Shown: positions 12,578 to 42,915, numbered from the stretch's first letter. The stretch is 64,000 nucleotides of DNA from an uncultured Gammaproteobacteria bacterium (GCA_964385285.1 CAYLOJ010000004.1:7736-71735), one strand, 5' to 3'. The notes: generated by a model not told the origin, from the sequence alone. Translations and numbers: made by a program.

Positions 12578-12602
12578 TAAAAAAATCCCCGGTTTCGGGG
12601 AT
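12578..12602 (-). terminator. Rho-independent terminator ending the island transcript before folD
   Basis: Stem atccccg/cggggat with loop gttt at 12585-12602. It is preceded on the + strand by an A7 run, which is a T-run after the stem on the minus strand. Confidence 0.55.
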
Positions 12603-12745: not shown

Positions 12746-14158
12746 TCAGCTTGTATGATTATGCTCATAAACCTGATTCTGCAAATAGAGGCAATTCCAT
12801 AAATTAAAACTTAAGAACTTACAAAACTCATTAATAAACATCTTGTCTTCGATCGTATAATTCTTGTGATTAATGCGGTCACTTAAGCAGAGCAAAGAGA
12901 TTAATTGATTATTATAGATGATGGGAAATATATTTTGGCAATGAAAATGATTTTTGACAGTTTGACTGACAAAGAAATTACTTTTCTGAAACTCCATGAA
13001 CCATCCTTCATCTTCTGCTATCTTGGAACGATTATGTGGGTAAACAGACTGAAAACTTCCGATATGTTTGTTATAGGTATAAATTGCTATGAATTCGACA
13101 GGCATTCTAGTCATGAAATGATCAACTGCTAAACGTACAAAAGCGTCTAGAGTGGGTATAGAATCAAGAATTTTCTGCTCATCAGCAGTAAGTTCATATA
13201 AATCAACTTGGGTTTGTGGAATGAAATAATGCACAACAATTTCTGCACATTTTTTAATAGGCCAAAATAAAATCAACATCACTGAGGAAAGTATTAATAA
13301 TATCAAGAAATAATTAGTAAATTGTGATACTAGAAGAAAATACAATATGATCACTATAATGATCTCTACCAGGAAACATAGGCAAATCAACAAGGCAAAT
13401 CTTCGAATATGATAGCGAATGCTGAAAATGCGATAACGTAATATAGCATAGGCAATAACGGCAGAAATAATACTTACACAAATTCCGCTTACAACTTGGG
13501 GTATGGATACAGCCAAAACTTCACTATGCGAATAACCTGCCCAAAATGTTTTTGCAATCAAAGGAATAACGACGTTTGCAGAAACAGCAATGAGGGTATT
13601 TAAACCGAAAGCAAATACTAATAGCTTGGCCTGCTCCTTTTTACGACCTATCGAGCGCATATACCCAAATGCCAACAGGATTATTAGAAGTGTTAATTGA
13701 AATAGTACTGCCGTGTACAATGGAATAGTGAAGCGAGCATTAGCTAGATAGAATAAGCTTGATTCTGAATCATAAATTTTTTCACCAACAATAAACTCTG
13801 GTATGTATGACATAACTACAAAAAAGGTCGTAATGATCAGTGTAATCCTTATGTGAAACGCTTTAAGATATTGCCTATCAAAAAAAATCCACAACAGCCA
13901 CAAAGTAGTAAACATGCCAGCAACCCCAAAGGCAAATGTTGATGCATTAAAGAAAAAATTAAATAGTGCGCCACGCTGTATAAAGAACGAAATGTACATG
14001 ACAATTTCCCATCCAATACTAAAAAACAGATTCACTAAATATATCTTTACTACTGGTGAGTGTAGATGGCGACTATTATTATAAAACCAAACCCCGACTG
14101 CTAGATCAAAGGCTACGCTGGCTAAAAATGTATATTGCATTAATGAGACCAATTCCAT
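12746..14158 (-). CDS. Polytopic membrane protein (~9 predicted TM helices) with a ~170-aa C-terminal cytoplasmic domain (possibly GAF-like/sensor). AT-rich.
   Basis: Repeated hydrophobic 20-aa segments across the first ~300 aa. AAGGAAG SD 7 nt upstream. GC clearly lower than its neighbours. Confidence 0.6.
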   Translation of the reverse strand: MELVSLMQYTFLASVAFDLAVGVWFYNNSRHLHSPVVKIYLVNLFFSIGWEIVMYISFFIQRGALFNFFFNASTFAFGVAGMFTTLWLLWIFFDRQYLKAFHIRITLIITTFFVVMSYIPEFIVGEKIYDSESSLFYLANARFTIPLYTAVLFQLTLLIILLAFGYMRSIGRKKEQAKLLVFAFGLNTLIAVSANVVIPLIAKTFWAGYSHSEVLAVSIPQVVSGICVSIISAVIAYAILRYRIFSIRYHIRRFALLICLCFLVEIIIVIILYFLLVSQFTNYFLILLILSSVMLILFWPIKKCAEIVVHYFIPQTQVDLYELTADEQKILDSIPTLDAFVRLAVDHFMTRMPVEFIAIYTYNKHIGSFQSVYPHNRSKIAEDEGWFMEFQKSNFFVSQTVKNHFHCQNIFPIIYNNQLISLLCLSDRINHKNYTIEDKMFINEFCKFLSFNLWNCLYLQNQVYEHNHTS

Positions 14159-14514: not shown

Positions 14515-15480
14515 TTAGTGAGCAATTGTCGTTACAGTATTCGTACCAGTACAGACACCTTCTACACCGCTGGTTGGAATAGCAATATTCCAGAAGAGCG
14601 ATTTGGTTAGAGGTGCGCCATCATTGGTGCGATAACCAATGTTGATATCCGTATCAGCCGGTGTGCCTGATAACGCAACCGCAGAACCATCCGAGTAACC
14701 TACATCTGTTAGCACCCATTTTTGATTTGCTACCGGAATAGCCCCTGCCACAGTGCACCCCATCGGACCTGCTGACGATACTTCAACATCAGCCTCATCA
14801 TTACCATATTGCTGTAAATCCATCTGAACATTATTAGCATTGGTGGTTGTTTGCCCTAAGGACAAAGAGCCGTATGGGATTGTACCAGGGATGGATAAAG
14901 CCAACCGCGTTTCCACTTCTTTATGTAATGAGTTGTTGGTGGCATTGGCTGCATCATTATCTGTAACTTTGACACTGACTACCCAATCTTCAGCGGACGC
15001 GACCCCTCCTGTCGATGTCGAATCTGTGTAGAATTGCAAAGCAACTGGGCAGTTATAATCTACTTGATCACCCGTTGAACCGTTCACAGTAGTACAGGAG
15101 ACAGCATAACAACCGTTGTTATCCGGAGTACAGCCTGCAGTGAGTGATGAACGATATAACACTGCTGCTACTGAGGTAATATCTGTTCGGCCATTCAGAT
15201 CTTCAGCAGTTCCAGTAATCTTATACATAGCGGTGCCACCAGCAATGAGTGATAAGGTACCACCCGCTCCACCTGTATTATCACTTTGTGTATAATCTGC
15301 ACCGGTCGTCACAAACACATCCACAATGCTTGGAACAGCATTCGCAATTGTGGCTGAAGTACTCGAACTATCGGCCTGAGAATTTAAGATCACAATCGCA
15401 GCGACCATCGAAACGCCAATAACGACTAGCGCTGCTCCTAATATCCAATGTGTAAAACTAATTGATTTTTTTTCTGCCAT
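14515..15480 (-). CDS. Secreted/surface protein, family A (Thr/Ser/Gly-rich, conserved CxxDNNxCY motif)
   Basis: N-terminal signal-anchor MAEKKSISFTHWILGAALVVIGV. It shares CTPDNNGCY, W..VKVTD.DA and a C-terminal SGVEGVC block with the 18538..19854 protein. Confidence 0.55.
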   Translation of the reverse strand: MAEKKSISFTHWILGAALVVIGVSMVAAIVILNSQADSSSTSATIANAVPSIVDVFVTTGADYTQSDNTGGAGGTLSLIAGGTAMYKITGTAEDLNGRTDITSVAAVLYRSSLTAGCTPDNNGCYAVSCTTVNGSTGDQVDYNCPVALQFYTDSTSTGGVASAEDWVVSVKVTDNDAANATNNSLHKEVETRLALSIPGTIPYGSLSLGQTTTNANNVQMDLQQYGNDEADVEVSSAGPMGCTVAGAIPVANQKWVLTDVGYSDGSAVALSGTPADTDINIGYRTNDGAPLTKSLFWNIAIPTSGVEGVCTGTNTVTTIAH

Positions 15481-15487
15481 ATCTTTC

Positions 15488-16744
15488 TTAATTAGTAATT
15501 GTATTAGAAGATAATTTTCGTTTTTTACGTACAACCATCATCACGATTATGATGGCAATCACACTGACAATGACAATGGCGATGATCGAGATCATGAGCG
15601 GTGTTAAAAATGTATCCGGCTTAAGTACTGTAAATGTCGTTGAAACTGCTTCCGTTTTTTTATTCGCATATTCGACGGACAGTTCAATTCGGTAATTTCC
15701 GGCTTCCGCAAATTGAAAAAAGTGGGAAAAGGTGGTCGTCTCGCCAGCATCCACAACTAATTCTTCACCGCGCAGATAATCGACTAAAGAATCATCCTTA
15801 TAAATATCTGCCAACAAAATACCTGTAATACGTGTGTCACCGGTATTTTCAAATTCCACATCTACCTTGATATTCTCATTCAGCTGATACTCTGCTTTAT
15901 TAGCTTTGACACTGACTACCTGACCAGTCTGAGCCAAGGTATTAGCAGGAAATACATCAAACGGTTGTGAGGTTAATGTCGCGACGGCTTGATCTTTATA
16001 GATAAAGGTAGCCACAGCGATGTATGAACCCTGAGCTAATTCGACCGGAGCAATAAAGGATAATTGATCATTGGTACCAGGTTCAGAATATTCAAGCGTA
16101 TCACCTGCAATTTCTGCAACGAATGTTTTGGCAGAATCTTGTCGATCCGTAAACACTAATTTAATTTGATCAGGACGCCAAGAAACATTGCCATCATTAT
16201 TAATGGTATATTCCATTAATAACTGATCATCTTCTTCAATCGACGCCGCAGACAGATCGGTCACCTGATAGGAGACAATTTCCGAACCACCAATGCCAAA
16301 TTTTACGACCGCAGCTGCTCCCTCCACCACTCGAGAGACTGCAGATGTTTGAGCATCCGTGGCCTCTGTCTCTGCATTCACCGGCGTTTCTGTAAACACA
16401 AAAATCGCCTCATAGTCACCGTTGGCAGCCTGCGCGGAGTTGATTTTAAATGTATAACTATAGTGCGACTCCCCTGCTGGAATCACAAATCCCTCTGGCG
16501 CTTCAACGGCATTCTCATATGGAGTGCGAACGCTGACGGTATAGGCAACATCTTCATTTAGCTGGGATGCTTCTTTGGAGACATCAATCGTCTTAGTTTG
16601 GCTCGAACCACGTAATACGCTGTCGATCTGGACTAATGGAGGAGAGATTCCAATTGCTGCCGCAGAGTGTGCACTCAATACACTTGCACCTAATACAAGA
16701 CTGCAACAAAGCAGTAATGAACGTAAAATCTTTTGATGACTCAT
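15488..16744 (-). CDS. Type I membrane surface protein, family B (signal peptide, mature N-terminus GISP, C-terminal TM anchor plus KKRK tail)
   Basis: Signal peptide MSHQKILRSLLLCCSLVLGASVLSAHSAAA. C-terminal MISIIAIVIVSVIAIIIVMMVVRKKRK. Beta-rich repetitive body. Confidence 0.6.
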   Translation of the reverse strand: MSHQKILRSLLLCCSLVLGASVLSAHSAAAIGISPPLVQIDSVLRGSSQTKTIDVSKEASQLNEDVAYTVSVRTPYENAVEAPEGFVIPAGESHYSYTFKINSAQAANGDYEAIFVFTETPVNAETEATDAQTSAVSRVVEGAAAVVKFGIGGSEIVSYQVTDLSAASIEEDDQLLMEYTINNDGNVSWRPDQIKLVFTDRQDSAKTFVAEIAGDTLEYSEPGTNDQLSFIAPVELAQGSYIAVATFIYKDQAVATLTSQPFDVFPANTLAQTGQVVSVKANKAEYQLNENIKVDVEFENTGDTRITGILLADIYKDDSLVDYLRGEELVVDAGETTTFSHFFQFAEAGNYRIELSVEYANKKTEAVSTTFTVLKPDTFLTPLMISIIAIVIVSVIAIIIVMMVVRKKRKLSSNTITN

Positions 16745-16810
16745 GAATGAAATTTTAGCGCAGTATAAACTTCAAAAAATTATACTATAAACAAGTGGAT
16801 TGGTCAACCA

Positions 16811-17176
16811 TTAATTGCGTAATAATGCAGTGATTATAAGGATCGCGATCACCACACTTAAGATGACAAACTTGAGCTTGAATTTATCTACTTTGCTGGA
16901 ATGCGTGCTGTAGGATACTTCGTAGGAACCATCCGGATTCCTGTGATAGAGTTTCTCAAAACTCTCCCCTTTATCATACAGCAACATCGCAGCCATCTGT
17001 TTTGGATTTTCAGTGATGATAAAACCATATATAATACTAGCAACCACAAAGCCAATCAAAAATCCCCAAAATAATTCATACTGAACCAGAGAAGTAAAAA
17101 ACAAATCAAGGCTTCTCTCTGAGGCTTGAATGGCAAATACTGCATTATCCATAGCCAGAATCATATCATGTTTCAT
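16811..17176 (-). CDS. Small two-TM membrane protein (uncertain; its start region collides with the signal peptidase start)
   Basis: ORF track. It has two hydrophobic helices. Confidence 0.3.
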   Translation of the reverse strand: MKHDMILAMDNAVFAIQASERSLDLFFTSLVQYELFWGFLIGFVVASIIYGFIITENPKQMAAMLLYDKGESFEKLYHRNPDGSYEVSYSTHSSKVDKFKLKFVILSVVIAILIITALLRN

Positions 17177-17698
17177 AACCTTTACCTATATCTTAAACGC
17201 GTCCTCCAAATTGGTGCGGCCATCGCAATTGCTGTCATTGTGACACGCAATGTATTTATCGATGTTGGCAAGGTAAATGGTAAATCGATGGAGCATACAT
17301 ATCTGGATCAAACCCTATTTCTTGTGAATCGCATTGGTCTACTCGTGCATGAACCACGGCGCGGCGATGTGGTGCAATTTTTTGATCCACATCCACAAAC
17401 CAAAGAATTACTGATCAAGCGTGTCATTGGTTTGCCGGGTGAACGGGTAAAAATTTCACAAAATGTTGTCTCTATTCTTAGTGCAGACGGAACAGAAGTT
17501 CTACTAGACGAACCGTATTTAGATACTGATACGACTACACAGACTGCCTCACATGATACCGTTATTTTTCCAGTCATCCCTGAACACAGTTTCTTTTTGC
17601 TCGGTGATAATCGAGATGAGAGTGTAGATTCACGCTATTTTGGCGTAATCCATCGATCACTGATTACCGGCAGTCTAATTCCGCTGCCGCAACTGTAA
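17168..17698 (+). CDS. lepB: Type I signal peptidase (LepB-like, catalytic Ser/Lys intact)
   Basis: Box B VNGKSMEHTY (Ser), box D LIKRVIGLPGE (Lys), box E GDNRDESVDSRYFG. N-terminal TM. The start is chosen at MFHNL; the ORF is open from 17126. Confidence 0.75.
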   Translation: MFHNLYLYLKRVLQIGAAIAIAVIVTRNVFIDVGKVNGKSMEHTYLDQTLFLVNRIGLLVHEPRRGDVVQFFDPHPQTKELLIKRVIGLPGERVKISQNVVSILSADGTEVLLDEPYLDTDTTTQTASHDTVIFPVIPEHSFFLLGDNRDESVDSRYFGVIHRSLITGSLIPLPQL

Positions 17699-18535
17699 AT
17701 ACGCGATAAACGCCACTAATAGAATACTTACCACACACAACAGGGTGATGACCCAGGTTTGATTATAAACCATCCATTCGGTTGTCTCCGTGTGACCATT
17801 GAGTTGAATCTCTGCTTGATACCAGGCGATTGTTTTGATCGTTGGCGTCGCTAGTGGAATGCTAAGTCTATTGGCGCCAGGTGCAATCACACTACTCGCA
17901 ACACTATCTGTGGTAGTAATCGTGCGACCATTACGTTTGATGATGACACGATACGGAAGATACTGTATGCCCGATGAATGTGACGAATCGATCTCCACAG
18001 TTTGCTCGACCGCAGCAGCATCAGACTGCACGTATGCAACTGGTAGATGTACCAGGTCGAGATCGGAATAATTGTCTCCCTGCACAGCAGTTTCGTTCGG
18101 AATAGTTAGGGCTGTGTCATGGGTGATCTGTACTGTACTGAGATGAGTAATACCAAATTGCACACTACTGCCTTGATCCGCCTGCACATCTTGTTCTTGT
18201 ACAAACTGTACTTGTATTGGGTATGTACCTACTGGGGAATCGATCGATGTATGGATAGTATAGGTAAACAGATACTCCTGCTCTACTGTAAACTCTGTCT
18301 GTTCAGCATCAATTGTGCAATGGCAATTTTCCGGCACATTAATATGCGTACTATATTGTACGGGTTCAATATTTGTTTGATTGAGCGTAACCGCTTGTGT
18401 AATAGAATCACCAGGTAATACATAGTGTTCAACAACGGAAGGCGCCAGACTCACAATGTCTGCAGCAACCGGTTGAACATTGAAGCAAACCAGCGCCACT
18501 CCTAACCCAACTGCGAGCTGTATTAACTTCTTCAT
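17675..18535 (-). CDS. Type I membrane surface protein, family B (signal peptide plus C-terminal TM anchor plus RQRN tail)
   Basis: Signal peptide MKKLIQLAVGLGVALVCFNVQPVAA and C-terminal VITLLCVVSILLVAFIAYLQLRQRN. Same architecture as 15488..16744 and 21252..22172. Confidence 0.6.
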   Translation of the reverse strand: MKKLIQLAVGLGVALVCFNVQPVAADIVSLAPSVVEHYVLPGDSITQAVTLNQTNIEPVQYSTHINVPENCHCTIDAEQTEFTVEQEYLFTYTIHTSIDSPVGTYPIQVQFVQEQDVQADQGSSVQFGITHLSTVQITHDTALTIPNETAVQGDNYSDLDLVHLPVAYVQSDAAAVEQTVEIDSSHSSGIQYLPYRVIIKRNGRTITTTDSVASSVIAPGANRLSIPLATPTIKTIAWYQAEIQLNGHTETTEWMVYNQTWVITLLCVVSILLVAFIAYLQLRQRN

Positions 18536-18537
18536 AC

Positions 18538-19854
18538 TTAGTCGAGTACGGCAATGTAATAAATGGTGTTGCTACAACTGCCTTCAATCCCAGAATTGGG
18601 TACACGCAATTTTAAATAGGTATCTTTAATGGCCGCAAAGACCTCGCTTGTTCTGGCTACTAATGCCAAATTTACATTCGTATCCGTGTTTGAGAGTGCT
18701 TGGTCCCCTACGCCATAGGTGAATCCATTCGTAAAGGATAGGTGAATATTACTGGTGGGTATGGTTCCACGTGTACAACTAATATCGCCACTGGCGGATT
18801 GAGTCGCATCAATATTACGATTACCCGTGTTCGTAAATGCGAGCGTCTGTTGAGGTGAATCAACGCCGAGCGTTAATGTGCCGTAATTCACAGAAGCACC
18901 GACATCTAAGGCTAACAAACTATTCATTTCAAACGCATCGCTAGAATTTGCAGTGGCCGTAGCATCATCAGTCACTTTGACAAAGTTAGTCCAATTCGTA
19001 GACGCACCTGGAGAACCGGCGTCCGTCGCATCGGCATAATATTGAATCGGAATGACTGCTTCATAATCAATCGTAGTATCAGCACCACCTGAACAATTAC
19101 TGAGTGTAAAGGCAACAGTATTGGTATCCAACTGATAACAATTATTATTATCGGCACTGCAACTTGTACCGCCCGCAACATCACTTTTATATGCCGTGAC
19201 TGCCCATTGCGTTTTTGCGTCAATCTGCGAACAGCCATCGGCATCGGTCGCTGTTCCTCTAATATATAAATTGGTAGTTGAACCATCCGTTAAATTGAAA
19301 GATCCTTGATCACTACCGCCACTCGTTGTCGTTGTGATTACAGAATCCACGGATGGTGTGGCATTCCCACTGCTGCTGGCCGTGGCGCAAATTTTATTCG
19401 TGTAGGCAGCGGCGTCTCCGATATGCGCATTTGTGGTGACCGCAGACATGGAAGCAATGGTTGTATCATACCCTGCACAATTGGTTGCTTGATAACCAAC
19501 TGAAACCGTACCGCTACTTACGGATAAGCAGGCATTATTTGCGTAATTCATTTGTGTTTTCTGCTCGACATGGGCATTCGTGACGTCCGACAATTTTGCA
19601 ATCGTATCATAGGTACCAGAACAAGATGTGCCTAATCCTGCTACACCAGAACAACAGACCAATTGACTGTAATTGGCTTGACTAGCTAATTCAGCATGCG
19701 CATTACTAGTACCTGCCATGCGCAATACTACTGTACCACTAGGGCAACTTGTACCTACTGTGCAAGATAACGTGCCGGCTAGTGCAACCGGTGCGATGCC
19801 GCAGACTGCAATAAGAACCATGCCAACAACAAGAGATCGGTATTTACCAGGCAT
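18538..19854 (-). CDS. Secreted/surface protein, family A (Cys-rich N-terminal extension with three [ST][ST]NAH repeats)
   Basis: Signal peptide MPGKYRSLVVGMVLIAVCGIAPVALA. CSADNNNCY, NWTNFVKVTDDATATAN and a C-terminal SGIEGSC block are homologous to 14515..15480. Confidence 0.55.
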   Translation of the reverse strand: MPGKYRSLVVGMVLIAVCGIAPVALAGTLSCTVGTSCPSGTVVLRMAGTSNAHAELASQANYSQLVCCSGVAGLGTSCSGTYDTIAKLSDVTNAHVEQKTQMNYANNACLSVSSGTVSVGYQATNCAGYDTTIASMSAVTTNAHIGDAAAYTNKICATASSSGNATPSVDSVITTTTSGGSDQGSFNLTDGSTTNLYIRGTATDADGCSQIDAKTQWAVTAYKSDVAGGTSCSADNNNCYQLDTNTVAFTLSNCSGGADTTIDYEAVIPIQYYADATDAGSPGASTNWTNFVKVTDDATATANSSDAFEMNSLLALDVGASVNYGTLTLGVDSPQQTLAFTNTGNRNIDATQSASGDISCTRGTIPTSNIHLSFTNGFTYGVGDQALSNTDTNVNLALVARTSEVFAAIKDTYLKLRVPNSGIEGSCSNTIYYIAVLD

Positions 19855-21175
19855 ATACGCGCACCTCTCCACGGCCACCAGCGCCACCATTGCCACCAGA
19901 TGTTGTGCCGCCACCGCCACCGCCGCCACCTGCACCTAACGCACCATCTCCTCCGATACTACCCGCGCTATCCGTATCTCCACCACCACCGCCGCCAGAA
20001 CCACCACAAGCACCTTTGTTACTGGCTGCACCATTACCACCAACTGCTGATGTGGCACCGCCAATACCGCCAATAGCACCACCACCAGAGGCATAACGAC
20101 CAGTAGTACTACCAGCTCCACCAGCTGTACCGGCGTTGGCTGTTGTTACACCACCACCAGCGCCACCACCAGGACATCCATACATCGATGATCCGCCAGT
20201 ACCGCCCGCTGCAGGTACAGCGGAGCTGCCTGCGCCACCGCCGCCACCCCACTCCGCACCAGCACCTGTTACTCCAATAGCTCCCTGTTGACCTTGACCA
20301 CCGAATGCAGCTGCAGCAGAAGCTCCTGGAGCACCGCCGGAAACTGCAGTCGTTCCTGTACCTGTTATACCTGCGCCAGCAGTACCGCCACCGCCGCCAC
20401 CAACTGAAATATTGGCTGCGATGCCGCCTTCACCGCCACCGCCACCGCCTGCAAAACACAAAGTGCCACCGAATGTCGAGTTTCCACCAGCGCCACCGGC
20501 TGTACCAGAAGCACTACTGCCACCGCCGCCGGCAGTTCCACCAACACCCACATTAACAGATTCTGTTGAACCAAGATCCGCTGCACTAAAGGTGCGTTCA
20601 GTCAGTGCGCCACCGCCGCCGCCGCCACCGCCAATACGTGCAGAGGCTGCCGCTCCACCGTTGCCGCCGCCACCGCCGCCACCGCCGCCAATACAGACTA
20701 CTTTTACAGTCGTAACCCCGGCTGGTTTATTCCAGGTGTTGGCGCCTGTTGCAGTAAAGATTTGGACATCTCCTATCTTTCCCCAAGTACCGTTTCCTTC
20801 CCAAAACGACCCGGCACCCGCATTCGTACCCCCGTTTAAATTATTTACTGATAGATCTCCTGTCACCCCATTTGCCAGATTCACTTGTGACCAGGCAGGA
20901 TTATTGCTACCACCGGTATTGGATAAATAACGGGTGGCGGTAGTATTTTTTGCCAAAGCAACAATGGTGTTCGCCGCGGAACCATATAAGAGATCTCCCT
21001 GAGCAATCGTATTTAAACCTGTACCGCCTTGCGATGGCGTGACCAAAACATCACCAACTTCCGACCACGTATGTCCAGGATTCGGAGCAGCTGCCATCGC
21101 AATTTTAATGACAGAGGTGGCAAGACAAATCAATAAAAAAACGGATAGGATTGGATTAAAATATTTGAGTCTCAT
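19844..21175 (-). CDS. Secreted glycine-rich protein: ~150-aa N-terminal globular domain followed by ~280 aa of poly-Gly/Ala/Thr/Ser tracts
   Basis: Signal peptide MRLKYFNPILSVFLLICLATSVIKIAMA. Runs of G8-G10. Very high local GC from GGN codons. Ends RGEVRVYAW. Confidence 0.55.
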   Translation of the reverse strand: MRLKYFNPILSVFLLICLATSVIKIAMAAAPNPGHTWSEVGDVLVTPSQGGTGLNTIAQGDLLYGSAANTIVALAKNTTATRYLSNTGGSNNPAWSQVNLANGVTGDLSVNNLNGGTNAGAGSFWEGNGTWGKIGDVQIFTATGANTWNKPAGVTTVKVVCIGGGGGGGGGNGGAAASARIGGGGGGGGALTERTFSAADLGSTESVNVGVGGTAGGGGSSASGTAGGAGGNSTFGGTLCFAGGGGGGEGGIAANISVGGGGGGTAGAGITGTGTTAVSGGAPGASAAAAFGGQGQQGAIGVTGAGAEWGGGGGAGSSAVPAAGGTGGSSMYGCPGGGAGGGVTTANAGTAGGAGSTTGRYASGGGAIGGIGGATSAVGGNGAASNKGACGGSGGGGGGDTDSAGSIGGDGALGAGGGGGGGGTTSGGNGGAGGRGEVRVYAW

Positions 21176-21251
21176 TCTTTACTATATATCACGCGCATAG
21201 ACATTAGGCAATTCAAAAAGGATCAGATAGAATATAGGAATTGATAATATT

Positions 21252-22172
21252 ATGAAGCTATTTAAACACTCTCGTCCTGCAATCGTCTCTACTCTCGGAT
21301 TACTACTTTTGGGATGTTGTTTTATTCCACGCGCAAGCTGGGCATTGGGAATTAGTCCGGCTAATCTGGAATATCAACAGATTAAGACGAATTCCATTAT
21401 CCATGGCCAACTCTTGGTTTCCGGCACAAATAGCGTGACTACTGATACGCTCAACATTACGGCTACTGGTGAAGCAGCTGGAGCAATTGAATTGCCAGTG
21501 AATCAGATTACATTAGCTCCGCAAACGACTACACCTATTAACTACTCAATCAATACGGCTGGCTTAGAGCCCGGTAACTACACAGCTGATCTTTCGATCG
21601 TTCAGGCAATATCTGAAAAAAAAGTCGAAGACAATACCTCTGCCGTACAGACTGGAGCCACTGTACATGTACAGTTTTCAGTAACCACTGAAGATATTCA
21701 TCAATTATCTATTGATGGTGTCGAACTACGCACTACTGAGCAACCGATCACTCTGCAGTATCGATTGATTAATGGAGGGAATGTGAGCGATCGACCACTC
21801 AGTGCGACCTTGGCCATACAGAATCTCTCCACACACGAATCAAGACTCCTGACGATTGATGATCTATCATGGGTTGATCCATTTAACTCAATATCAGCCA
21901 ACATTCAATTACCCAGCAATCTCTCTGGTGGCAATTACGCCATCAGCGTTCAATTTACGAGTAATGATGGTGAGACTCTCTACACAAGCAGTGAACAACA
22001 CTTTCAGATTCCACTGACCTGGTACGAAACCATCACCCGAGCCAGTACAGCTCACCCCGTCACTGGGTTCATGATCACATTGGGTTGTTTACTCATCAGT
22101 GGTGCTGGCTTTTGGCTATATCAGAAGCGCGCACGCAGCACGTCCACAAAGTCAGCCAAGCACTCTGCTTGA
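21252..22172 (+). CDS. Type I membrane surface protein, family B (signal peptide, mature N-terminus LGISP, C-terminal TM anchor plus KRAR tail)
   Basis: Signal peptide ...IPRASWA / LGISPANLEYQQ. C-terminal FMITLGCLLISGAGFWLYQKRAR. Ig-like repetitive body. Confidence 0.6.
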   Translation: MKLFKHSRPAIVSTLGLLLLGCCFIPRASWALGISPANLEYQQIKTNSIIHGQLLVSGTNSVTTDTLNITATGEAAGAIELPVNQITLAPQTTTPINYSINTAGLEPGNYTADLSIVQAISEKKVEDNTSAVQTGATVHVQFSVTTEDIHQLSIDGVELRTTEQPITLQYRLINGGNVSDRPLSATLAIQNLSTHESRLLTIDDLSWVDPFNSISANIQLPSNLSGGNYAISVQFTSNDGETLYTSSEQHFQIPLTWYETITRASTAHPVTGFMITLGCLLISGAGFWLYQKRARSTSTKSAKHSA

Positions 22173-34762: not shown

Positions 34763-35108
34763 GCAGATAATTGAAGGCCATTACAAAGAGATGTGCAAAG
34801 GTCAGGCAGATTACTAAAGCCCATTCGTACCATACCAACACACCAATGGGAGAGACTTTCTTGGCCCGCATCCATTGAGTGAGCACCTGAAACACAAACG
34901 CTACTGCAGTTAAGGCAAATAGCATACCAATAAATGATAGCCACAACAGATTGAGTACTAAGGCGATGCCGACAATCACACTGGCGCCTAACAACCACCA
35001 AGTTGCTCGTTTGGCTTTTGGCCACTCCGCAGGAGCTTGGCGATGTACAAAATATAATGTCACCCACTGAACCACAATCATGATGTAACTCACTAAGATC
35101 AGGATCAT
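34746..35108 (-). CDS. Small membrane protein (3-4 TM)
   Basis: ORF track, hydrophobic helices. An alternative frame, ORF 34759..35124, was judged less likely. Confidence 0.3.
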   Translation of the reverse strand: MILILVSYIMIVVQWVTLYFVHRQAPAEWPKAKRATWWLLGASVIVGIALVLNLLWLSFIGMLFALTAVAFVFQVLTQWMRAKKVSPIGVLVWYEWALVICLTFAHLFVMAFNYLHETAN

Positions 35109-36940
35109 AATTTAATGGTTTCAATTTTACTCAAGGAACTTTCGTTACCTAAATCGTCAATCGCACGGACTTTATAATAATACCGCTGTCCACTCTGTAC
35201 GGTAACATCTGTATATTTGCGTGTTGTAATTTCTCCAGACAACGAACGATATTGGCCATCGCGTGTTTCTGAACGATAAACCTTATAAGCTTGCGTATGT
35301 TCCCCGATTGGTCGATACCAGCGTAATTCAACCGTGCCATCATTTTGCTCCGTCAGACTACGCCAAGTAGGGCGTTTAATTTTACGATCCACTAAGTATT
35401 GAAATTCCGTTAAGTCTGAAGTGCGTCCTTCACTATCCAACGTTTTAATCCGTAAGCGATAGGTACGTTCATTGCCATGCAGTGATGTGGTTGGCTCATA
35501 GTGACGTGAGGTCTGGAGCGTACCATAGACAACCGGATCCAAGCGTTCACGGCCGAAGTAGACATAGTAGCCAGTAATATCCACCACACTGCTAGGTTCA
35601 GACCACTGAAAATATGGAGTCTGATCTTTCGTCCGTTCTGCATTGGCCACGGCAACACTGCGACTACTCGAACGATAGCCTGTAACGGAAACTGGGTCTG
35701 GCGCCAACTGATCGTGCACGGCATTTACGACAGCGGCTGCGTTTACCCTGCCTGCTCCTAACGTACTATCGTTGATATCTTCCGCATGATCCGCAATCAA
35801 CGCACTTACCTCAGTAGGAGTTAGGTTAGGATCAATCGACAGAGCTAACGCTGCAATACCACTCACCACGGGTGTAGCCATCGACGTACCAGACATGTAT
35901 CCATATTCATCATCTAGTGATGGGTATGTTCCCGTATCATCGTAGTAGAATGTGTTGTAAATCTCTTGACCAGGCGCAGCGACATCGACACAATCATCTC
36001 CATAATTACTGAAATAAGCAATGACATCACTATCATCTGTAGCGCCTACTCCGATCACGTTATCAAAACAGGCTGGATAAAATGGATCGGTATTTAAATC
36101 TGTCGCATCATTGCCAGCCGCGGCCACTAACACCACTCCGGCTGCAAAGGCATCTTCCATAGACGCTTGTTCAGTTTGACTTCTGCCACTGCCACCATAA
36201 CTCATATTAATGACATCTGCGCCATTAGCCACCGCATATGCCACGGCTTCCGCTACTTCACTGGTCTGACTTTCACCATCATCGTTAAAAATTTTTAACG
36301 GCATAATCGATACATTCCAGTTCACGCCTGTCCCACCGATACCATTATTGGGCTCGGCACCAATGGTACCGGCCACGTGCGTACCATGAATGACATAGTC
36401 ATGTGTGAAGACCAGGGATGATGGTTGTGCGGAGGGATTATTATCAGCGTTTACAAAATCCCAGCCGTTCACATCATCCACATAGCCATTGGCATCATCA
36501 TCGATTCCGTTGTCAGCAACTTCTCCTGGATTGATCCAAATATTATTAACTAAATCTGGATGGTTCAGATCTATCCCTGTATCAATCACGGCTACGACAA
36601 TATCGTTACTACCAGTGGTTTCATCCCACGCGGCCTCAGCATCAATATCCTGATCACTGGTTTGTTCTAAATACCACTGTCGATCGTACTCAGGATCATT
36701 GGGTAGTACGGCTAAATACCGCTTATAGTTTGGTTCAACATACTCTACCCGGCTATCCTGATTAAACAGATCAATGGCCGTAGTCACATCACTGACACGA
36801 ACCGTAGAAACGGTATCGGGCAATGCCGGCGTTTCCTTCCACTTGATTAACACCTCATTTTCGACGTAATCTTCAGCAAATACGGGTCCGGATAATACCA
36901 AACCAACCAGCGCCATCATCATTATTCTTCCTACCTGCAT
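35105..36940 (-). CDS. Secreted subtilisin-like serine protease (peptidase S8) with a C-terminal fibronectin type III-like domain
   Basis: Catalytic triad motifs VAVIDTGID, HGTHVAGTIG, GTSMATPVVSG. N-terminal signal peptide. C-terminal YRLRIKTLDSEGR...YYYKVRAIDDLGNES, which is FN3-like. Confidence 0.85.
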   Translation of the reverse strand: MQVGRIMMMALVGLVLSGPVFAEDYVENEVLIKWKETPALPDTVSTVRVSDVTTAIDLFNQDSRVEYVEPNYKRYLAVLPNDPEYDRQWYLEQTSDQDIDAEAAWDETTGSNDIVVAVIDTGIDLNHPDLVNNIWINPGEVADNGIDDDANGYVDDVNGWDFVNADNNPSAQPSSLVFTHDYVIHGTHVAGTIGAEPNNGIGGTGVNWNVSIMPLKIFNDDGESQTSEVAEAVAYAVANGADVINMSYGGSGRSQTEQASMEDAFAAGVVLVAAAGNDATDLNTDPFYPACFDNVIGVGATDDSDVIAYFSNYGDDCVDVAAPGQEIYNTFYYDDTGTYPSLDDEYGYMSGTSMATPVVSGIAALALSIDPNLTPTEVSALIADHAEDINDSTLGAGRVNAAAVVNAVHDQLAPDPVSVTGYRSSSRSVAVANAERTKDQTPYFQWSEPSSVVDITGYYVYFGRERLDPVVYGTLQTSRHYEPTTSLHGNERTYRLRIKTLDSEGRTSDLTEFQYLVDRKIKRPTWRSLTEQNDGTVELRWYRPIGEHTQAYKVYRSETRDGQYRSLSGEITTRKYTDVTVQSGQRYYYKVRAIDDLGNESSLSKIETIKL

Positions 36941-41345: not shown

Positions 41346-42134
41346 TTAAAACAACTTTTCTTGGTAGGCAGACGTCTGTTCACTTTCTGTGAGGTTGAGA
41401 ATTTTGTCCAATAAGTAAGTTTGTCGATCATTATCGGTGTAGGAATAGACCGTGACCGATTGATCGTTCAGATCTAATAGATCAACACGCGTGTGATGAA
41501 TCTGACGGTTTGTTTCTGTTTGCTGTAGTAGATCAATGGTGACTTGTTGGTGCTTCTTAAATGCCTCTGCTAAGCGTTGAAATATAGTCGGTTCATCTGA
41601 CCAACTCGTAGGCATGCGAAAACTATCTCCTCCTGATGTGTATAAAATGTAGCCATGGTTAACCCCATACTCATAGACATCTTTTGTAATGCGCACATCA
41701 TCTAAACAGTATTTCGCTAATGCCTTCATGTTTCCCTCCCGATAATACCGAATGGCATCTAATCCACTGCCGGATTTTCCTTCTCCTAGCGTAGCTTGAG
41801 CGACACTTTCCAGTTTCATACGAAACCCGAGTGTATTATAAATATCAGCCAAAATATCCACTTGTGGTAAAGCAGAGATATTGAGGGTTCTAAAGTAGGG
41901 TTGAATAACGACGTTATCAAAATTGATTGAATTGAAACCAATAATGGTTGGTTTCTCGGCGTTTAAAATCATCTCTAGTTTTGGAATGTCTTGTTCAAAA
42001 AAACTGAAATATTGTTTTTGCGTGTAGGAATAGAGCCCAAGAAATGAAACGCCCAATTCAGCATTTTTTCCAAATCCGCCAACTTCCGCAAAGGTTTTTT
42101 TAGTTTCTAAATCGTAAACAATGGTTGGGCCCAT
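41346..42134 (-). CDS. DEDDy-type 3'-5' exonuclease (RNase H-like, PolB-exonuclease/YprB-like)
   Basis: IVYDLETKK (Exo I), IGFNSINFDNVV (Exo II), YCLDDVRITKDVYEYG (Exo III, Y-x3-D). Confidence 0.55.
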   Translation of the reverse strand: MGPTIVYDLETKKTFAEVGGFGKNAELGVSFLGLYSYTQKQYFSFFEQDIPKLEMILNAEKPTIIGFNSINFDNVVIQPYFRTLNISALPQVDILADIYNTLGFRMKLESVAQATLGEGKSGSGLDAIRYYREGNMKALAKYCLDDVRITKDVYEYGVNHGYILYTSGGDSFRMPTSWSDEPTIFQRLAEAFKKHQQVTIDLLQQTETNRQIHHTRVDLLDLNDQSVTVYSYTDNDRQTYLLDKILNLTESEQTSAYQEKLF

Positions 42135-42150
42135 AGGTAATCTATTCCAA

Positions 42151-42915
42151 TTAACGTGGCGTGTGTTTTAGTTGCTCAATAAACTGCTTGGCTTCCGCAG
42201 AGCGAGGACAAATTTCTAAGAAGTCACAGTGCTTGCACCGTGAACTAATTTTTGGCTCAAGTTGCTGATCTGCACGAATTAAATTTACCTTCTCGATCAA
42301 TTCTTCGGTAATGGGCTCAAACAGATCATCTGAGATATCAATACTATACCATTGATTTGTGGCTAAGTAGAGGTAAGAGGCTTTATACACAGGGATGGAT
42401 TGATTCGCGCGCACAATCATTGCGTAAATGGCTAATTGATCCTCTGAAACTTCATCCTCCTTAAACTGACCGGTTTTATAATCAATCACATGCAACCCTT
42501 CCGCATCTTGGTCTACCCGATCGATGCGGCCTAGCACCTTAATATCTGAGGCAATCTCTGTGTCATAGTAATCCTCCAACATCACCGGTGTCTTCATTAG
42601 ATCATTTTTGAACGTATAGAGTTTCAACATCTGCAACGCTTTTGTCCCCCACTCGCGTTCATCTGCAATATCCATGAATCCTTTTCGATTCTCTCGCCAG
42701 CGCTTGCGTAACAATGCTTCTAGCACCTGATAGTTGCGCTCAGCTGGAGCATACTGCTCGTAGAGATCCTTTAAACTATTATGAACATGGGCACCCATGG
42801 TTAAATATGGTTTGGGAGTTTTGTACTCATCCGCAATGTAATCCACATAAGTATATTTATACTGTCGTGGACAGGTTTCATACATGGTCAGCTTGAATGG
42901 TGAGATCTTGAACAT
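42151..42915 (-). CDS. Cas4-like PD-(D/E)XK nuclease with a 4-Cys Fe-S cluster signature (DUF83/RecB-family), stand-alone
   Basis: N-terminal YETCPRQYKY, catalytic GRIDRVDQD...VIDYKTG, C-terminal CKHCDFLEICP (C-x2-C-x5-C). The start ATG overlaps the stop of the upstream LCP gene. Confidence 0.65.
   Translation of the reverse strand: MFKISPFKLTMYETCPRQYKYTYVDYIADEYKTPKPYLTMGAHVHNSLKDLYEQYAPAERNYQVLEALLRKRWRENRKGFMDIADEREWGTKALQMLKLYTFKNDLMKTPVMLEDYYDTEIASDIKVLGRIDRVDQDAEGLHVIDYKTGQFKEDEVSEDQLAIYAMIVRANQSIPVYKASYLYLATNQWYSIDISDDLFEPITEELIEKVNLIRADQQLEPKISSRCKHCDFLEICPRSAEAKQFIEQLKHTPR

What the first reader, a model, noticed from the sequence alone, without database searches (positions are those of the whole stretch)
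15488..22172. Three paralogous type I membrane proteins: signal peptide, mature N-terminus GISP, C-terminal TM plus basic tail
15488..16744, 17675..18535 and 21252..22172 all have a cleavable signal peptide and a beta-rich Ig-like repetitive body. All end in a single hydrophobic helix followed by KKRK, RQRN or KRAR. Two of the three mature N-termini begin (A/L)GISP. This is the topology of DUF916/DUF3324-type Gram-positive surface proteins, which are sortase-independent membrane anchors. No conserved motif precedes the TM, so sortase, exosortase or archaeosortase processing seems unlikely. The three copies are dispersed on both strands, which suggests a multi-component structure rather than simple tandem duplication.
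Basis: seen in the sequence. Interest (0 to 1): 0.5.

Follow-up and report, generated by a model that had tools for sequence, protein, structure and literature searches.

The report
Three paralogous Patescibacteria surface-anchor proteins
The three genes are real, related membrane-anchored surface proteins built from tandem Ig-like domains, and they form the core of an unnamed gene cluster, seen here mostly in genome bins labelled as ultra-small Patescibacteria (CPR bacteria), that probably builds a cell-surface attachment complex.

Summary
All three ORFs exist at the stated coordinates. Each has an N-terminal signal peptide, a beta-rich body and one C-terminal TM helix followed by a basic tail.

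They are homologous. BLASTP links p1 and p3 (E = 3e-5). A profile built only from positional orthologues in other genomes hits p1, p2 and p3 at 4e-29, 2e-23 and 2e-17. An AlphaFold2 model of p1 (pLDDT 93.7) shows three beta-sandwich domains and a TM helix.

They are not DUF916/DUF3324 (WxLIP) family members. None of 84 relatives hits WxLIP_PGBD, and only p3 hits WxLIP_HBD, below threshold. The diagnostic motif is absent, and fold matches are generic Ig-like.

The family is unnamed, with about 1,400 clusters at 50% identity. Ten of 14 related genome loci are labelled Patescibacteria or CPR lineages. It sits in a conserved module:
- two or three paralogues;
- an antisense-embedded signal peptidase I;
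- a two-TM protein of about 115 aa;
- one to six secreted two-Ig-domain proteins with a conserved signal peptide ending NSQA.

A two-component system often flanks the module, and five loci have pilB/pilC beside it.

Best reading: a sortase-independent surface-display or adhesion complex, analogous to WxL/WxLIP but not homologous. The mechanism is inferred.

The parts
15488..16744 (-). p1, the 'GISP-C' type paralogue (418 aa). Signal peptide, mature N-terminus IGISPP, three Ig-like domains (the third CARDB-like), TM helix, RKKRK tail.
   Evidence: ORF. AlphaFold2 pLDDT 93.7 with domain boundaries. CARDB 22.7 bits, equal to the cut-off. Profile A6 hit at 1.7e-163. Sits downstream of tm121 as in all other loci.
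17675..18535 (-). p2, the 'GISP-B' type paralogue (286 aa). Signal peptide, DIVSLAPS, two Ig-like domains, TM, RQRN tail. Its 3' end overlaps the 3' end of the signal peptidase gene (convergent).
   Evidence: ORF. B2 profile hit at 1.9e-23. phmmer hit to L004_8111_9082 at 1e-8. Same position next to S26 as GISP-B in the other loci.
21252..22172 (+). p3, a third paralogue (306 aa). Signal peptide, LGISPA, two Ig-like domains, TM, KRAR tail. It is closest to the C type but lacks the third domain. It lies inverted relative to the rest of the module.
   Evidence: ORF. BLASTP to p1 at 3e-5. A6 profile, built without it, hits at 5.7e-28. B2 profile hits at 1.9e-17. Not seen among the listed A-group profile hits (the listing was cut at 50 rows).
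17126..17698 (+). Bacterial-type signal peptidase I (S26), encoded antisense inside the module. The likely true start is ATG at 17168.
   Evidence: Peptidase_S26 at 6e-34. TIGR02227 scores 115 bits against a cut-off of 47. Boxes SMEHT, KRVIGLPGE and GDNRDESVDSR are visible in the sequence. Orthologue adjacent to a GISP gene in 14 of 14 assessable genome loci and 15 of 16 assessable metagenome loci.
16811..17176 (-). tm121, a small two-TM protein divergent from S26. The likely start is Met9, at 17152.
   Evidence: Hydropathy peaks at residues 36 and 101. Orthologues of 107-119 aa, or 88-aa ORFs in L008 and L009, lie next to S26 in 11 genome loci and most metagenome loci. No Pfam or NCBIfam match.
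14515..15534 (-). Small 'FIB' protein (321 aa from the start that gives the deposited 321-aa product, at 15480). Conserved signal peptide HWILGAAL...NSQA|D, then two beta-sandwich domains. No C-terminal anchor.
18538..19935 (-). Large 'FIB' paralogue. The probable start is ATG at 19854, giving 438 aa. Ordinary signal peptide, a Cys-rich N-terminal extension with three 'NAH' repeats, and the shared C-terminal region of about 290 aa.
   Evidence: BLASTP to the small FIB at 3e-29, 31% identity over 295 aa. Large FIB proteins also sit beside GISP-B in L002 and L005.
19844..21175 (-). Secreted glycine-rich protein (443 aa). It is adjacent and co-directional, but membership of the module is uncertain: no counterpart was found in L001-L034.
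   Evidence: Gly_rich_2 PF21722 scores 28.2 bits against a cut-off of 24.3. No homologue in L001-L015, and none labelled in L016-L034.
12746..14158 (-). Seven-TM protein of 470 aa downstream of the small FIB. It may be a sensor-like counterpart of the histidine kinases that flank the module elsewhere. Membership is uncertain.
   Evidence: Seven hydrophobic segments. Weak similarity (E = 0.009) to the HisKA_7TM region of the L024 kinase. No Pfam hit.
16779..16807 (-). Promoter-like site (TTGACC-17-TATAAT, 11 of 12) in the 66-nt gap upstream of p1.
   Evidence: This is a consensus match only. The total number of sites in the region is no higher than in shuffles.
12585..12602 (-). Terminator-like hairpin followed by a T-run, after the 470-aa gene. 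It may mark the end of the p1-FIB transcription unit.
   Evidence: Consensus match only.

Best explanation
What they are. The three ORFs are homologous genes for type I membrane proteins, presumably exported through Sec. The ectodomain is two (p2, p3) or three (p1) tandem Ig-like beta-sandwich domains, held by a C-terminal stop-transfer helix. They belong to an unnamed family, called 'GISP' here after the conserved mature N-terminus G-[IVL]-S-P.

The module. The family is the core of a conserved cell-surface gene module found here mostly in genome bins labelled Patescibacteria. The module holds two or three GISP paralogues (types A, B and C), a bacterial-type signal peptidase I encoded antisense in the middle, and a two-TM protein of about 115 aa. 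It also holds one to six anchorless two-Ig-domain proteins ('FIB') whose signal peptide is unusually conserved and ends in NSQA.

Proposed working:
1. FIB proteins are exported and cleaved after NSQA by the module's own peptidase.
2. They have no anchor of their own, so they are captured and displayed, or assembled, on a membrane-anchored GISP hetero-complex.
3. The result is a non-covalent, sortase-independent surface complex used for attachment to other cells.

This logic is analogous to the WxL/WxLIP (Csc) complexes of Firmicutes, but the proteins are not homologous to them. Expression is probably controlled by the flanking two-component system, and in some lineages the module is co-encoded with type IV pilus genes.

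Shown: the genes, their topology, their homology, the fold of p1 and of the small FIB, and the synteny. Inferred: cleavage by this particular peptidase, GISP-FIB contact, and the adhesion role.
For: Genes and topology.

Homology of the three.

Fold: p1 model with pLDDT 93.7 and three beta-sandwiches plus a TM helix. FIB model with pLDDT 92.7, an N-terminal helix and two beta-sandwiches.

Family size: 1,402 representatives at E <= 1e-3 and 564 at E <= 1e-10.

Taxonomy: of 14 genome loci, 10 are labelled Patescibacteria or CPR lineages. One is labelled only 'bacterium' and three are TPA bins labelled 'uncultured Gammaproteobacteria'; these carry the same module.

Synteny:
- The order GISP-A, GISP-B, antisense S26, tm121, GISP-C, FIB x1-6 recurs across the loci.
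- It persists for a distant family member at rank 149 and in a closer relative of the window.

FIB features:
- The small and large FIB are paralogous.
- The signal peptide is conserved, 'LHW[IV]LGxAL...NSQA|D'.
- There is no C-terminal anchor.

Flanking genes:
- A histidine kinase and/or response regulator lies beside the module in about 11 loci.
- pilB/pilC lie beside it in five distinct loci: L004, L006, L007, L010 and L016.

Published analogy: WxLIP is a signal peptide, two Ig-like domains and a TM helix, and it clusters with one small and one large WxL protein (PMC10599100).
Against: - No tool result shows physical contact between GISP and FIB proteins.
- The only apparent GISP-FIB fusion (L005, 740 aa) spans masked N and is an artefact.
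- The Ig-like folds are generic and do not point to a specific activity.
- The S26 gene could be the cell's housekeeping LepB rather than a dedicated enzyme. Copy number per genome was not tested.
- The FIB N-terminal helix is long (about 22 hydrophobic residues) and could stay uncleaved as an anchor. GISP-mediated retention would then be unnecessary.
- In this window p3 is inverted and separated from the rest, and no A-type paralogue was found.
- No expression or localisation data exist.
Confidence: 0.5

Rival explanations
1. The three proteins are true, divergent members of the WxLIP (DUF916/DUF3324) family. They would work exactly as proposed for WxLIP, binding and stabilising WxL-type partners on peptidoglycan.
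For: - Same architecture: signal peptide, two Ig-like domains, TM helix.
- p3 has a sub-threshold WxLIP_HBD hit at E = 4.6e-5.
- The partners come as one small and one large paralogue sharing a C-terminal domain.
- That domain carries two conserved W-x-[LI] motifs in 32 of 39 homologues.
Against: - None of 84 members hits WxLIP_PGBD. Only p3 hits WxLIP_HBD, below the cut-off and in the wrong domain.
- The NQIDKxxxYFDLK motif is absent in all 151.
- PDB sequence searches miss 9i1y.
- None of 40 FIB proteins hits any Pfam family, WxL included.
Confidence: 0.08
2. GISP proteins are membrane-tethered PapD-like chaperones or an assembly platform. FIB subunits polymerise into a fibre by donor-strand exchange after cleavage by the dedicated peptidase. 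This would be a monoderm counterpart of chaperone-usher, TasA/TapA/SipW or haloarchaeal tafi systems.
For: - A signal peptidase gene is embedded in the cluster, as with SipW or TafD.
- FIB genes occur as multiple tandem paralogues, up to six, like major and minor subunits.
Against: - Both FIB domains are modelled as complete beta-sandwiches at pLDDT above 90 in the monomer, so a donated strand is not obviously needed.
- The conserved 'xNxxPxV' strand looks like an ordinary cadherin/Big-type domain start and recurs internally in longer homologues.
- The peptidase is the bacterial Ser/Lys type, not the SipW/ER type.
- No PapD or TasA Pfam family is among the 25 families most often matched by the 84 GISP members (of 40 found), or among the 7 found for the FIB homologues.
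Confidence: 0.15
3. GISP proteins are independent adhesins or receptors. They are merely co-located with other secreted-protein genes and the housekeeping signal peptidase, and they form no obligate complex.
For: - Ig-like/CARDB ectodomains on a TM stalk are a common adhesin design.
- S26 may simply be LepB.
- In the window, p3 sits apart on the other strand.
Against: - Gene order and orientation are conserved in about 30 loci, including the unusual antisense S26 and the tm121 partner. These loci span Uhrbacteria, Kaiserbacteria, Kerfeldbacteria and Gracilibacteria.
- Three distinct paralogue types keep fixed positions, which argues for non-redundant roles.
Confidence: 0.15
4. The module is an accessory part of the type IV pilus machinery, for example a pilus-associated adhesin set or an alignment or anchoring subcomplex.
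For: The module lies between or next to pilB and pilC, with pilM or pilins, in five distinct loci: L004, L006, L007, L010 and L016. A published survey notes novel TM families of Patescibacteria in a pilB/pilC/pilM context (PMC10849945). Identity with this family was not verified.
Against: - Most loci, including this window, have no T4P gene nearby.
- No PilB/C/M/T or pilin homologue occurs in the 64-kb window.
- FIB and GISP lack the class III (prepilin) signal, and the associated peptidase is S26, not a prepilin peptidase.
Confidence: 0.08

Closest known systems
WxL / WxLIP (Csc) cell-surface clusters of Firmicutes (DUF916 = WxLIP_PGBD, DUF3324 = WxLIP_HBD)
   Same: A secreted protein with two Ig-like domains and a C-terminal TM helix with a short tail. 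It is encoded next to one small and one large paralogous anchorless surface protein that share a C-terminal domain. Attachment is sortase-independent and non-covalent (PMC10599100; window).
   Different: - No sequence-family membership.
- Three paralogous anchors per locus instead of one, with a third CARDB-like domain in the C type.
- A signal peptidase and a two-TM protein embedded in the cluster.
- No LPXTG partner.
- Loci labelled Patescibacteria rather than lactobacilli or enterococci.
tapA-sipW-tasA operon of Bacillus, and the haloarchaeal tafi cluster (TafA-G with the signal peptidase TafD)
   Same: A signal peptidase I gene sits inside a cluster of secreted beta-sandwich surface or fibre proteins, and the substrates carry a conserved class of signal peptide (tafi: PMC11821415; the tapA-sipW-tasA operon and the SipW-cognate signal-peptide class are from general knowledge, not tested here).
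   Different: - The peptidase here is the bacterial Ser/Lys LepB type (TIGR02227), not the ER/archaeal type.
- FIB shows no TasA or camelysin similarity.
- TasA and tafi clusters have no GISP-like type I membrane proteins with tandem Ig domains.
- No evidence for donor-strand exchange.
PapD-like periplasmic chaperones and ASH/MSP-type Ig domains
   Different: GISP proteins are membrane-anchored. No PapD_N or PapD_C family is among the 25 Pfam families most often matched by the 84 members (of 40 found). There is no usher and no outer membrane, and the partner domains look complete.
CARDB / DUF11-type (COG1470-like) membrane-anchored surface proteins
   Different: Domains 1 and 2, which define the family, have no Pfam model. 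The conserved G-I-S-P N-terminus and the fixed gene neighbourhood are specific to this family.

Membership tests
WxLIP (DUF916/DUF3324) | Architecture: signal peptide, two Ig-like domains, C-terminal TM helix | tested here: met
   p2 and p3 have two domains. p1 has an extra third domain.
WxLIP (DUF916/DUF3324) | Match to Pfam WxLIP_PGBD (DUF916, the N-terminal domain) | tested here: not met
   No hit for p1, p2 or p3 at E <= 1. None of 84 family members hits at E <= 0.01.
WxLIP (DUF916/DUF3324) | Match to Pfam WxLIP_HBD (PF11797) above the gathering score, in the second domain | tested here: not met
   Only p3 hits, at 23.8 bits against a cut-off of 28.9. The match covers residues 68-128, in its first domain. 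One of 84 members hits.
WxLIP (DUF916/DUF3324) | Conserved N-terminal motif NQIDKxxxYFDLK | tested here: not met
   None of 151 family representatives has it. The family instead has G-[IVL]-[ST]-P at the mature N-terminus, in 126 of 151.
WxLIP (DUF916/DUF3324) | Clustered with at least two WxL-domain proteins | tested here: not met
   The partners are a small/large pair, but none of 40 hits any Pfam family, WxL included. Two conserved W-x-[LI] motifs are only a resemblance.
WxLIP (DUF916/DUF3324) | Specific structural similarity to the solved WxLIP (9i1y) | tested here: inconclusive
Sortase / exosortase / archaeosortase substrates | LPXTG, PEP-CTERM or PGF-CTERM motif immediately before the C-terminal TM | tested here: not met
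   LPxTG-like in 3, PEP in 1 and PGF in 0 of the 145 representatives that have the late TM (151 scanned). No motif in p1-p3.
CARDB (PF07705) | Pfam match at or above the gathering score | tested here: met
   p1 residues 277-366 score 22.7 bits, equal to the cut-off (borderline). 30 of 84 relatives hit CARDB and 31 hit DUF7507. This applies to domain 3 only; p2 and p3 lack it.
PapD-like pilus chaperones | PapD_N / PapD_C sequence families together with usher and pilin partners | tested here: not met
TasA/SipW-type fibre operon | ER/archaeal-type signal peptidase (SipW) and a TasA/camelysin-fold substrate | tested here: not met
   The peptidase matches TIGR02227, the bacterial type. FIB has no TasA or Peptidase_M73 hit.
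Unnamed Patescibacteria 'GISP' family (defined here) | Significant match to the D1-D2 profile, a G-[IVL]-S-P mature N-terminus, a C-terminal TM with basic tail, and a neighbouring S26 gene | tested here: met
   p2 has the degenerate motif S-L-A-P.

The most novel reading that the evidence does not exclude
The module is a dedicated surface-assembly pathway of Patescibacteria. A specialised signal peptidase I and its two-TM partner would recognise the conserved signal peptide of FIB proteins, which often lacks a cationic n-region. They would hand the cleaved subunits to a hetero-trimeric GISP-A/B/C platform. This would build the molecularly unidentified surface layer or attachment organelle that these episymbionts use to bind hosts, in some lineages wired into the type IV pilus operon and a two-component sensor.
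Probability: 0.15. Interest if true: 0.8.

Novelty: new variant of a known kind. Interest (0 to 1): 0.55.

Why it matters
Cultivated Patescibacteria grow attached to other microbes (abstract of PMC11623550), yet apart from type IV pili little is known about the molecules on their surface. This analysis identifies a gene module that is conserved across several CPR lineages and has no annotation. Its parts are three paralogous anchors, an embedded signal peptidase, a small membrane protein and a variable set of secreted Ig-domain proteins.

That gives the field a concrete candidate for the attachment or surface-layer apparatus, with clear experiments to run. It also warns against transferring the DUF916/DUF3324 label on topology alone. 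For annotation, the GISP and FIB families have no Pfam model (GISP apart from its CARDB-like third domain). The window proteins have no NCBIfam match and no significant PDB sequence relative (the third-domain region apart), and both families could be defined from the alignments made here.

Tried and rejected
- **Apparent GISP-C + FIB fusion.** L005_5709_7931 (740 aa, also P0018) looked like Rosetta-stone evidence for an interaction. The ORF runs across masked N, so it is an artefact.
- **Window p3 as an A-type paralogue.** It is not seen among the listed A-group profile hits (the listing was cut at 50 rows) and is closest to the C type.
- **L038, a closer relative.** Its 761-aa and 463-aa neighbours are not the large FIB or the 7-TM protein of the window.
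- **Unavailable or failed runs.**
  - The afdb50 fold library, which would hold predicted WxLIP and WxL models, was not available.
  - The 84-sequence alignment was too diverse for a locus search.
  - The 150-sequence alignment was too large for the Pfam scan.
- **Searches that found nothing.**
  - Rfam found nothing in the window.
  - Word-indexed homologue searches found only 2 relatives of p1 and none of p3. The family became visible only with the exhaustive profile search.
  - An exact look-up of p1 found no contig record, so the window's organism could not be named.
- **Not possible.** A profile-profile comparison with WxLIP could not be run because no WxLIP sequences could be fetched.
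- **Promoter and terminator scan.** Counts are no higher than in shuffles, so the sites are only tentative.

Full report
**1. The observation**

The three ORFs are at exactly the stated coordinates. They are p1 at 15488..16744(-), 418 aa; p2 at 17675..18535(-), 286 aa; and p3 at 21252..22172(+), 306 aa.

Each has an N-terminal hydrophobic segment ending in an AXA-type site. Each also has one C-terminal hydrophobic helix followed by RKKRK, RQRN or KRAR. The mature N-termini would be IGISPP (p1), LGISPA (p3) and DIVSLAPS (p2). SignalP and TMHMM were not available, so topology rests on hydropathy, the -3/-1 rule and the structure model.

An AlphaFold2 model of p1, built on a 150-sequence alignment, has mean pLDDT 93.7 and pTM 0.77. 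It shows:
- a signal helix at 2-23;
- three beta-sandwich domains at 32-152, 159-265 and 274-374;
- a TM helix at 382-412.

**2. Are they paralogues?**

- BLASTP links p1 and p3 (E = 3e-5, 23% identity over 187 aa).
- p2 is not significant pairwise.
- A profile of the two N-terminal domains found 1,402 cluster representatives at E <= 1e-3 among 1.84 billion proteins. The family is real and fairly large.
- I then built a profile only from the genes that occupy p2's position in other genomes, with no window sequence in it. It hits p1 at 3.7e-29, p2 at 1.9e-23 and p3 at 1.9e-17.
- p2 also hits L004_8111_9082 directly at 1e-8, and the p1-type profile hits that protein at 8e-17.

All three are therefore homologous. 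p2 is the most divergent.

Across 151 representatives:
- 145 have the late TM;
- 141 have at least two K/R right after it;
- 126 have G[ILVMAT][ST]P near the N-terminus;
- LPxTG-like, PEP and PGF strings before the TM occur in 3, 1 and 0.

**3. Is it DUF916/DUF3324 (WxLIP)?**

The published definition has four parts (PMC10599100):
- a signal peptide;
- a PGBD (DUF916) domain carrying NQIDKxxxYFDLK, followed by an HBD (DUF3324) domain;
- a TM helix;
- clustering with at least two WxL proteins, typically one small and one large.

Architecture is the only feature met.
- No WxLIP_PGBD hit occurs in p1-p3 or in any of 84 relatives.
- WxLIP_HBD is hit only by p3. The score is 23.8 bits against a cut-off of 28.9, and the match lies in its first domain.
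- The motif is absent in 151 of 151.
- Sequence searches of the PDB with the family profile and with p3 do not find the solved EfmWxLIP1, 9i1y.
- The Foldseek top hits are tandem PapD-like/ASH Ig proteins of the ciliary central apparatus, such as Hydin.

The fold is a generic E-set sandwich. Family membership is not supported. The afdb50 library that could have sharpened this was unavailable.

**4. What surrounds them**

In the window, the minus strand carries, in order:
- a Gly-rich secreted protein;
- a 'large FIB' protein (465-aa ORF, probably 438 aa);
- p2;
- the small two-TM protein tm121;
- p1;
- a 'small FIB' protein (339-aa ORF, 321 aa as deposited);
- a 7-TM protein.

A signal peptidase I gene lies on the plus strand between p2 and tm121. 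p3 follows on the plus strand.

The small and large FIB are paralogues (E = 3e-29). The small one consists only of the shared region of about 290 aa. The large one adds a Cys-rich N-terminal extension.

Its signal peptide is conserved in sequence, 'LHW[IV]LGxAL...NSQA|D'. It often lacks a positively charged n-region. The protein ends in a conserved beta-strand with no anchor.

**5. Comparative genomics**

A scan of GTDB species representatives gave 14 loci.
- Ten are labelled Patescibacteria or CPR lineages: Uhrbacteria, Kaiserbacteria, Kerfeldbacteria, Gracilibacteria.
- One is labelled only 'bacterium'.
- Three are TPA bins labelled 'uncultured Gammaproteobacteria'. They carry the same module, and I could not check the label.

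A metagenome scan gave 19 more loci, four of which duplicate genome loci. An ENA contig (L001) and two Logan contigs add to these.

Classifying all ORFs locally with phmmer and hmmsearch shows one recurrent order:

GISP-A (about 450-520 aa) > GISP-B (about 290-350 aa) > [S26 on the opposite strand] > tm121 (about 113 aa) > GISP-C (about 410-500 aa, p1 type) > FIB x 1-6

- S26 is next to a GISP gene in 14 of 14 assessable genome loci and 15 of 16 assessable metagenome loci.
- This holds even for a family member ranked 149th in the profile search.
- The S26 gene is convergent with GISP-B, with overlapping 3' ends in the window. It is divergent from tm121, with only about 15-50 nt between their starts.
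- A histidine kinase and/or response regulator flanks the module in about 11 loci. Pfam confirmed these.
- pilB/pilC, with or without pilM or pilins, flank or enclose the module in five distinct loci: L004, L006, L007, L010 and L016.
- The 64-kb window has no type IV pilus gene. Its other neighbours are purine-synthesis and housekeeping genes.

**6. Interpretation**

Shown:
- a homologous trio of type I membrane proteins with tandem Ig-like domains;
- an unannotated family found mostly in loci labelled Patescibacteria;
- a tightly conserved module with a bacterial-type signal peptidase, a two-TM protein and anchorless Ig-domain proteins.

Inferred: FIB proteins are cleaved at NSQA by the module's peptidase. 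They are then held or assembled on a GISP hetero-complex, giving a non-covalent surface-display or adhesion complex. This works like WxL/WxLIP without being homologous to it.

Support for the inference:
- Three paralogue types keep fixed positions, which suggests non-redundant subunits.
- FIB has no anchor of its own.
- FIB comes as a small/large pair and in variable copy number.
- Sensor-regulator and pilus genes are recurrent neighbours.

Weak points:
- There is no direct evidence of contact. The one apparent GISP-FIB fusion is an artefact of masked N.
- The peptidase could be the housekeeping LepB.
- The FIB helix could remain as an anchor.

**7. Rivals**

- **A donor-strand fibre with GISP as tethered PapD-like chaperones.** This is attractive because of the embedded peptidase, which parallels SipW and TafD (PMC11821415), and the CfaA and HYDIN fold hits. 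It is weakened because the FIB domains look complete and the peptidase is the bacterial type.
- **A type IV pilus accessory role.** This fits five loci but not the majority.
- **Independent adhesins.** This fits poorly with the conserved order and orientation.
- **True WxLIP membership.** The family tests go against it.

**8. Novelty and literature**

I found no paper that describes this module. A survey of unknown gene families mentions novel transmembrane families of Patescibacteria in a pilB/pilC/pilM context without characterising them (PMC10849945). Whether that is the same family is unverified.

I rate the finding a new variant of a known kind: a sortase-independent, multi-gene surface complex with an associated signal peptidase. 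Interest is moderate. The gene-level conclusions are firm and the mechanism is provisional.

Noticed in passing
window 17126..17698 (+), with 16811..17176 (-) and 17675..18535 (-): The signal peptidase I gene is embedded antisense in an otherwise co-directional operon. Its 3' end overlaps that of p2. Its start lies only about 15-50 nt from the divergent tm121 start. The same layout recurs in about 25 loci from different CPR lineages, which hints at convergent-transcription control.
   Followed up: partly
window 14515..15534 (-), and homologues P0152-P0186: The FIB signal peptide is conserved in sequence (LHW[IV]LGxAL...NSQA|D). In many homologues it has an acidic or neutral n-region rather than a cationic one, which is atypical for Sec signal peptides.
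   Followed up: partly
window 14515..15534 (-), C-terminal domain: Two conserved Trp-x-(Leu/Ile) motifs (KWxLTD and YWNIxIP) occur in 32 of 39 FIB homologues. This recalls the dual WxL motif, but no Pfam WxL match exists.
   Followed up: partly
window 18538..19935 (-): The listed GTG start overlaps the upstream gene. The real start is probably ATG at 19854 (MPGKYRS...). The N-terminal extension holds three Cys-containing repeats, each with a T/S-N-A-H motif, and has no known family.
   Followed up: no
window 19844..21175 (-), with antisense ORFs at 19890..20096 and 20412..20930 (+): A secreted glycine-rich protein (Gly_rich_2, 28.2 bits). Its N-terminal region resembles, from memory and untested, phage tail-fibre 'GGTG' regions. 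The Pro-rich ORFs on the opposite strand are mirror artefacts of the Gly codons. No counterpart was found in L001-L034.
   Followed up: partly
window 12746..14158 (-): A 470-aa seven-TM protein with no Pfam hit. It shows weak similarity (E = 0.009) to the HisKA_7TM region of histidine kinases that flank the module in other loci. It may be a kinase-less sensor.
   Followed up: partly
L005 5709..7931 (= P0018, 740 aa): An apparent GISP-C + FIB fusion protein. The ORF runs through a stretch of masked N, so it is a gene-calling artefact that is nevertheless present in the protein database.
   Followed up: yes
L004, L006, L007, L010, L016: In these Uhrbacteria-like loci the whole module, with a PAS/HAMP histidine kinase and a response regulator in most of them, lies between or next to pilB and pilC.
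   Followed up: partly
L008 11892..13403 (also L009, L027, L029): In the Kaiserbacteria loci a secreted RCC1-repeat protein is inserted between GISP-C and FIB. The module there directly follows three ORFs that I read from their N-terminal sequences as ATP synthase alpha, gamma and beta; this was not scanned against any family library.
   Followed up: no
window 35105..36940 (-) and 41346..42915 (-): A secreted S8 subtilase with a C-terminal fn3-like domain. Also a Cas4-like PD-(D/E)XK nuclease next to an RNase-H-like exonuclease gene, with LexA nearby. None was examined further.
   Followed up: no
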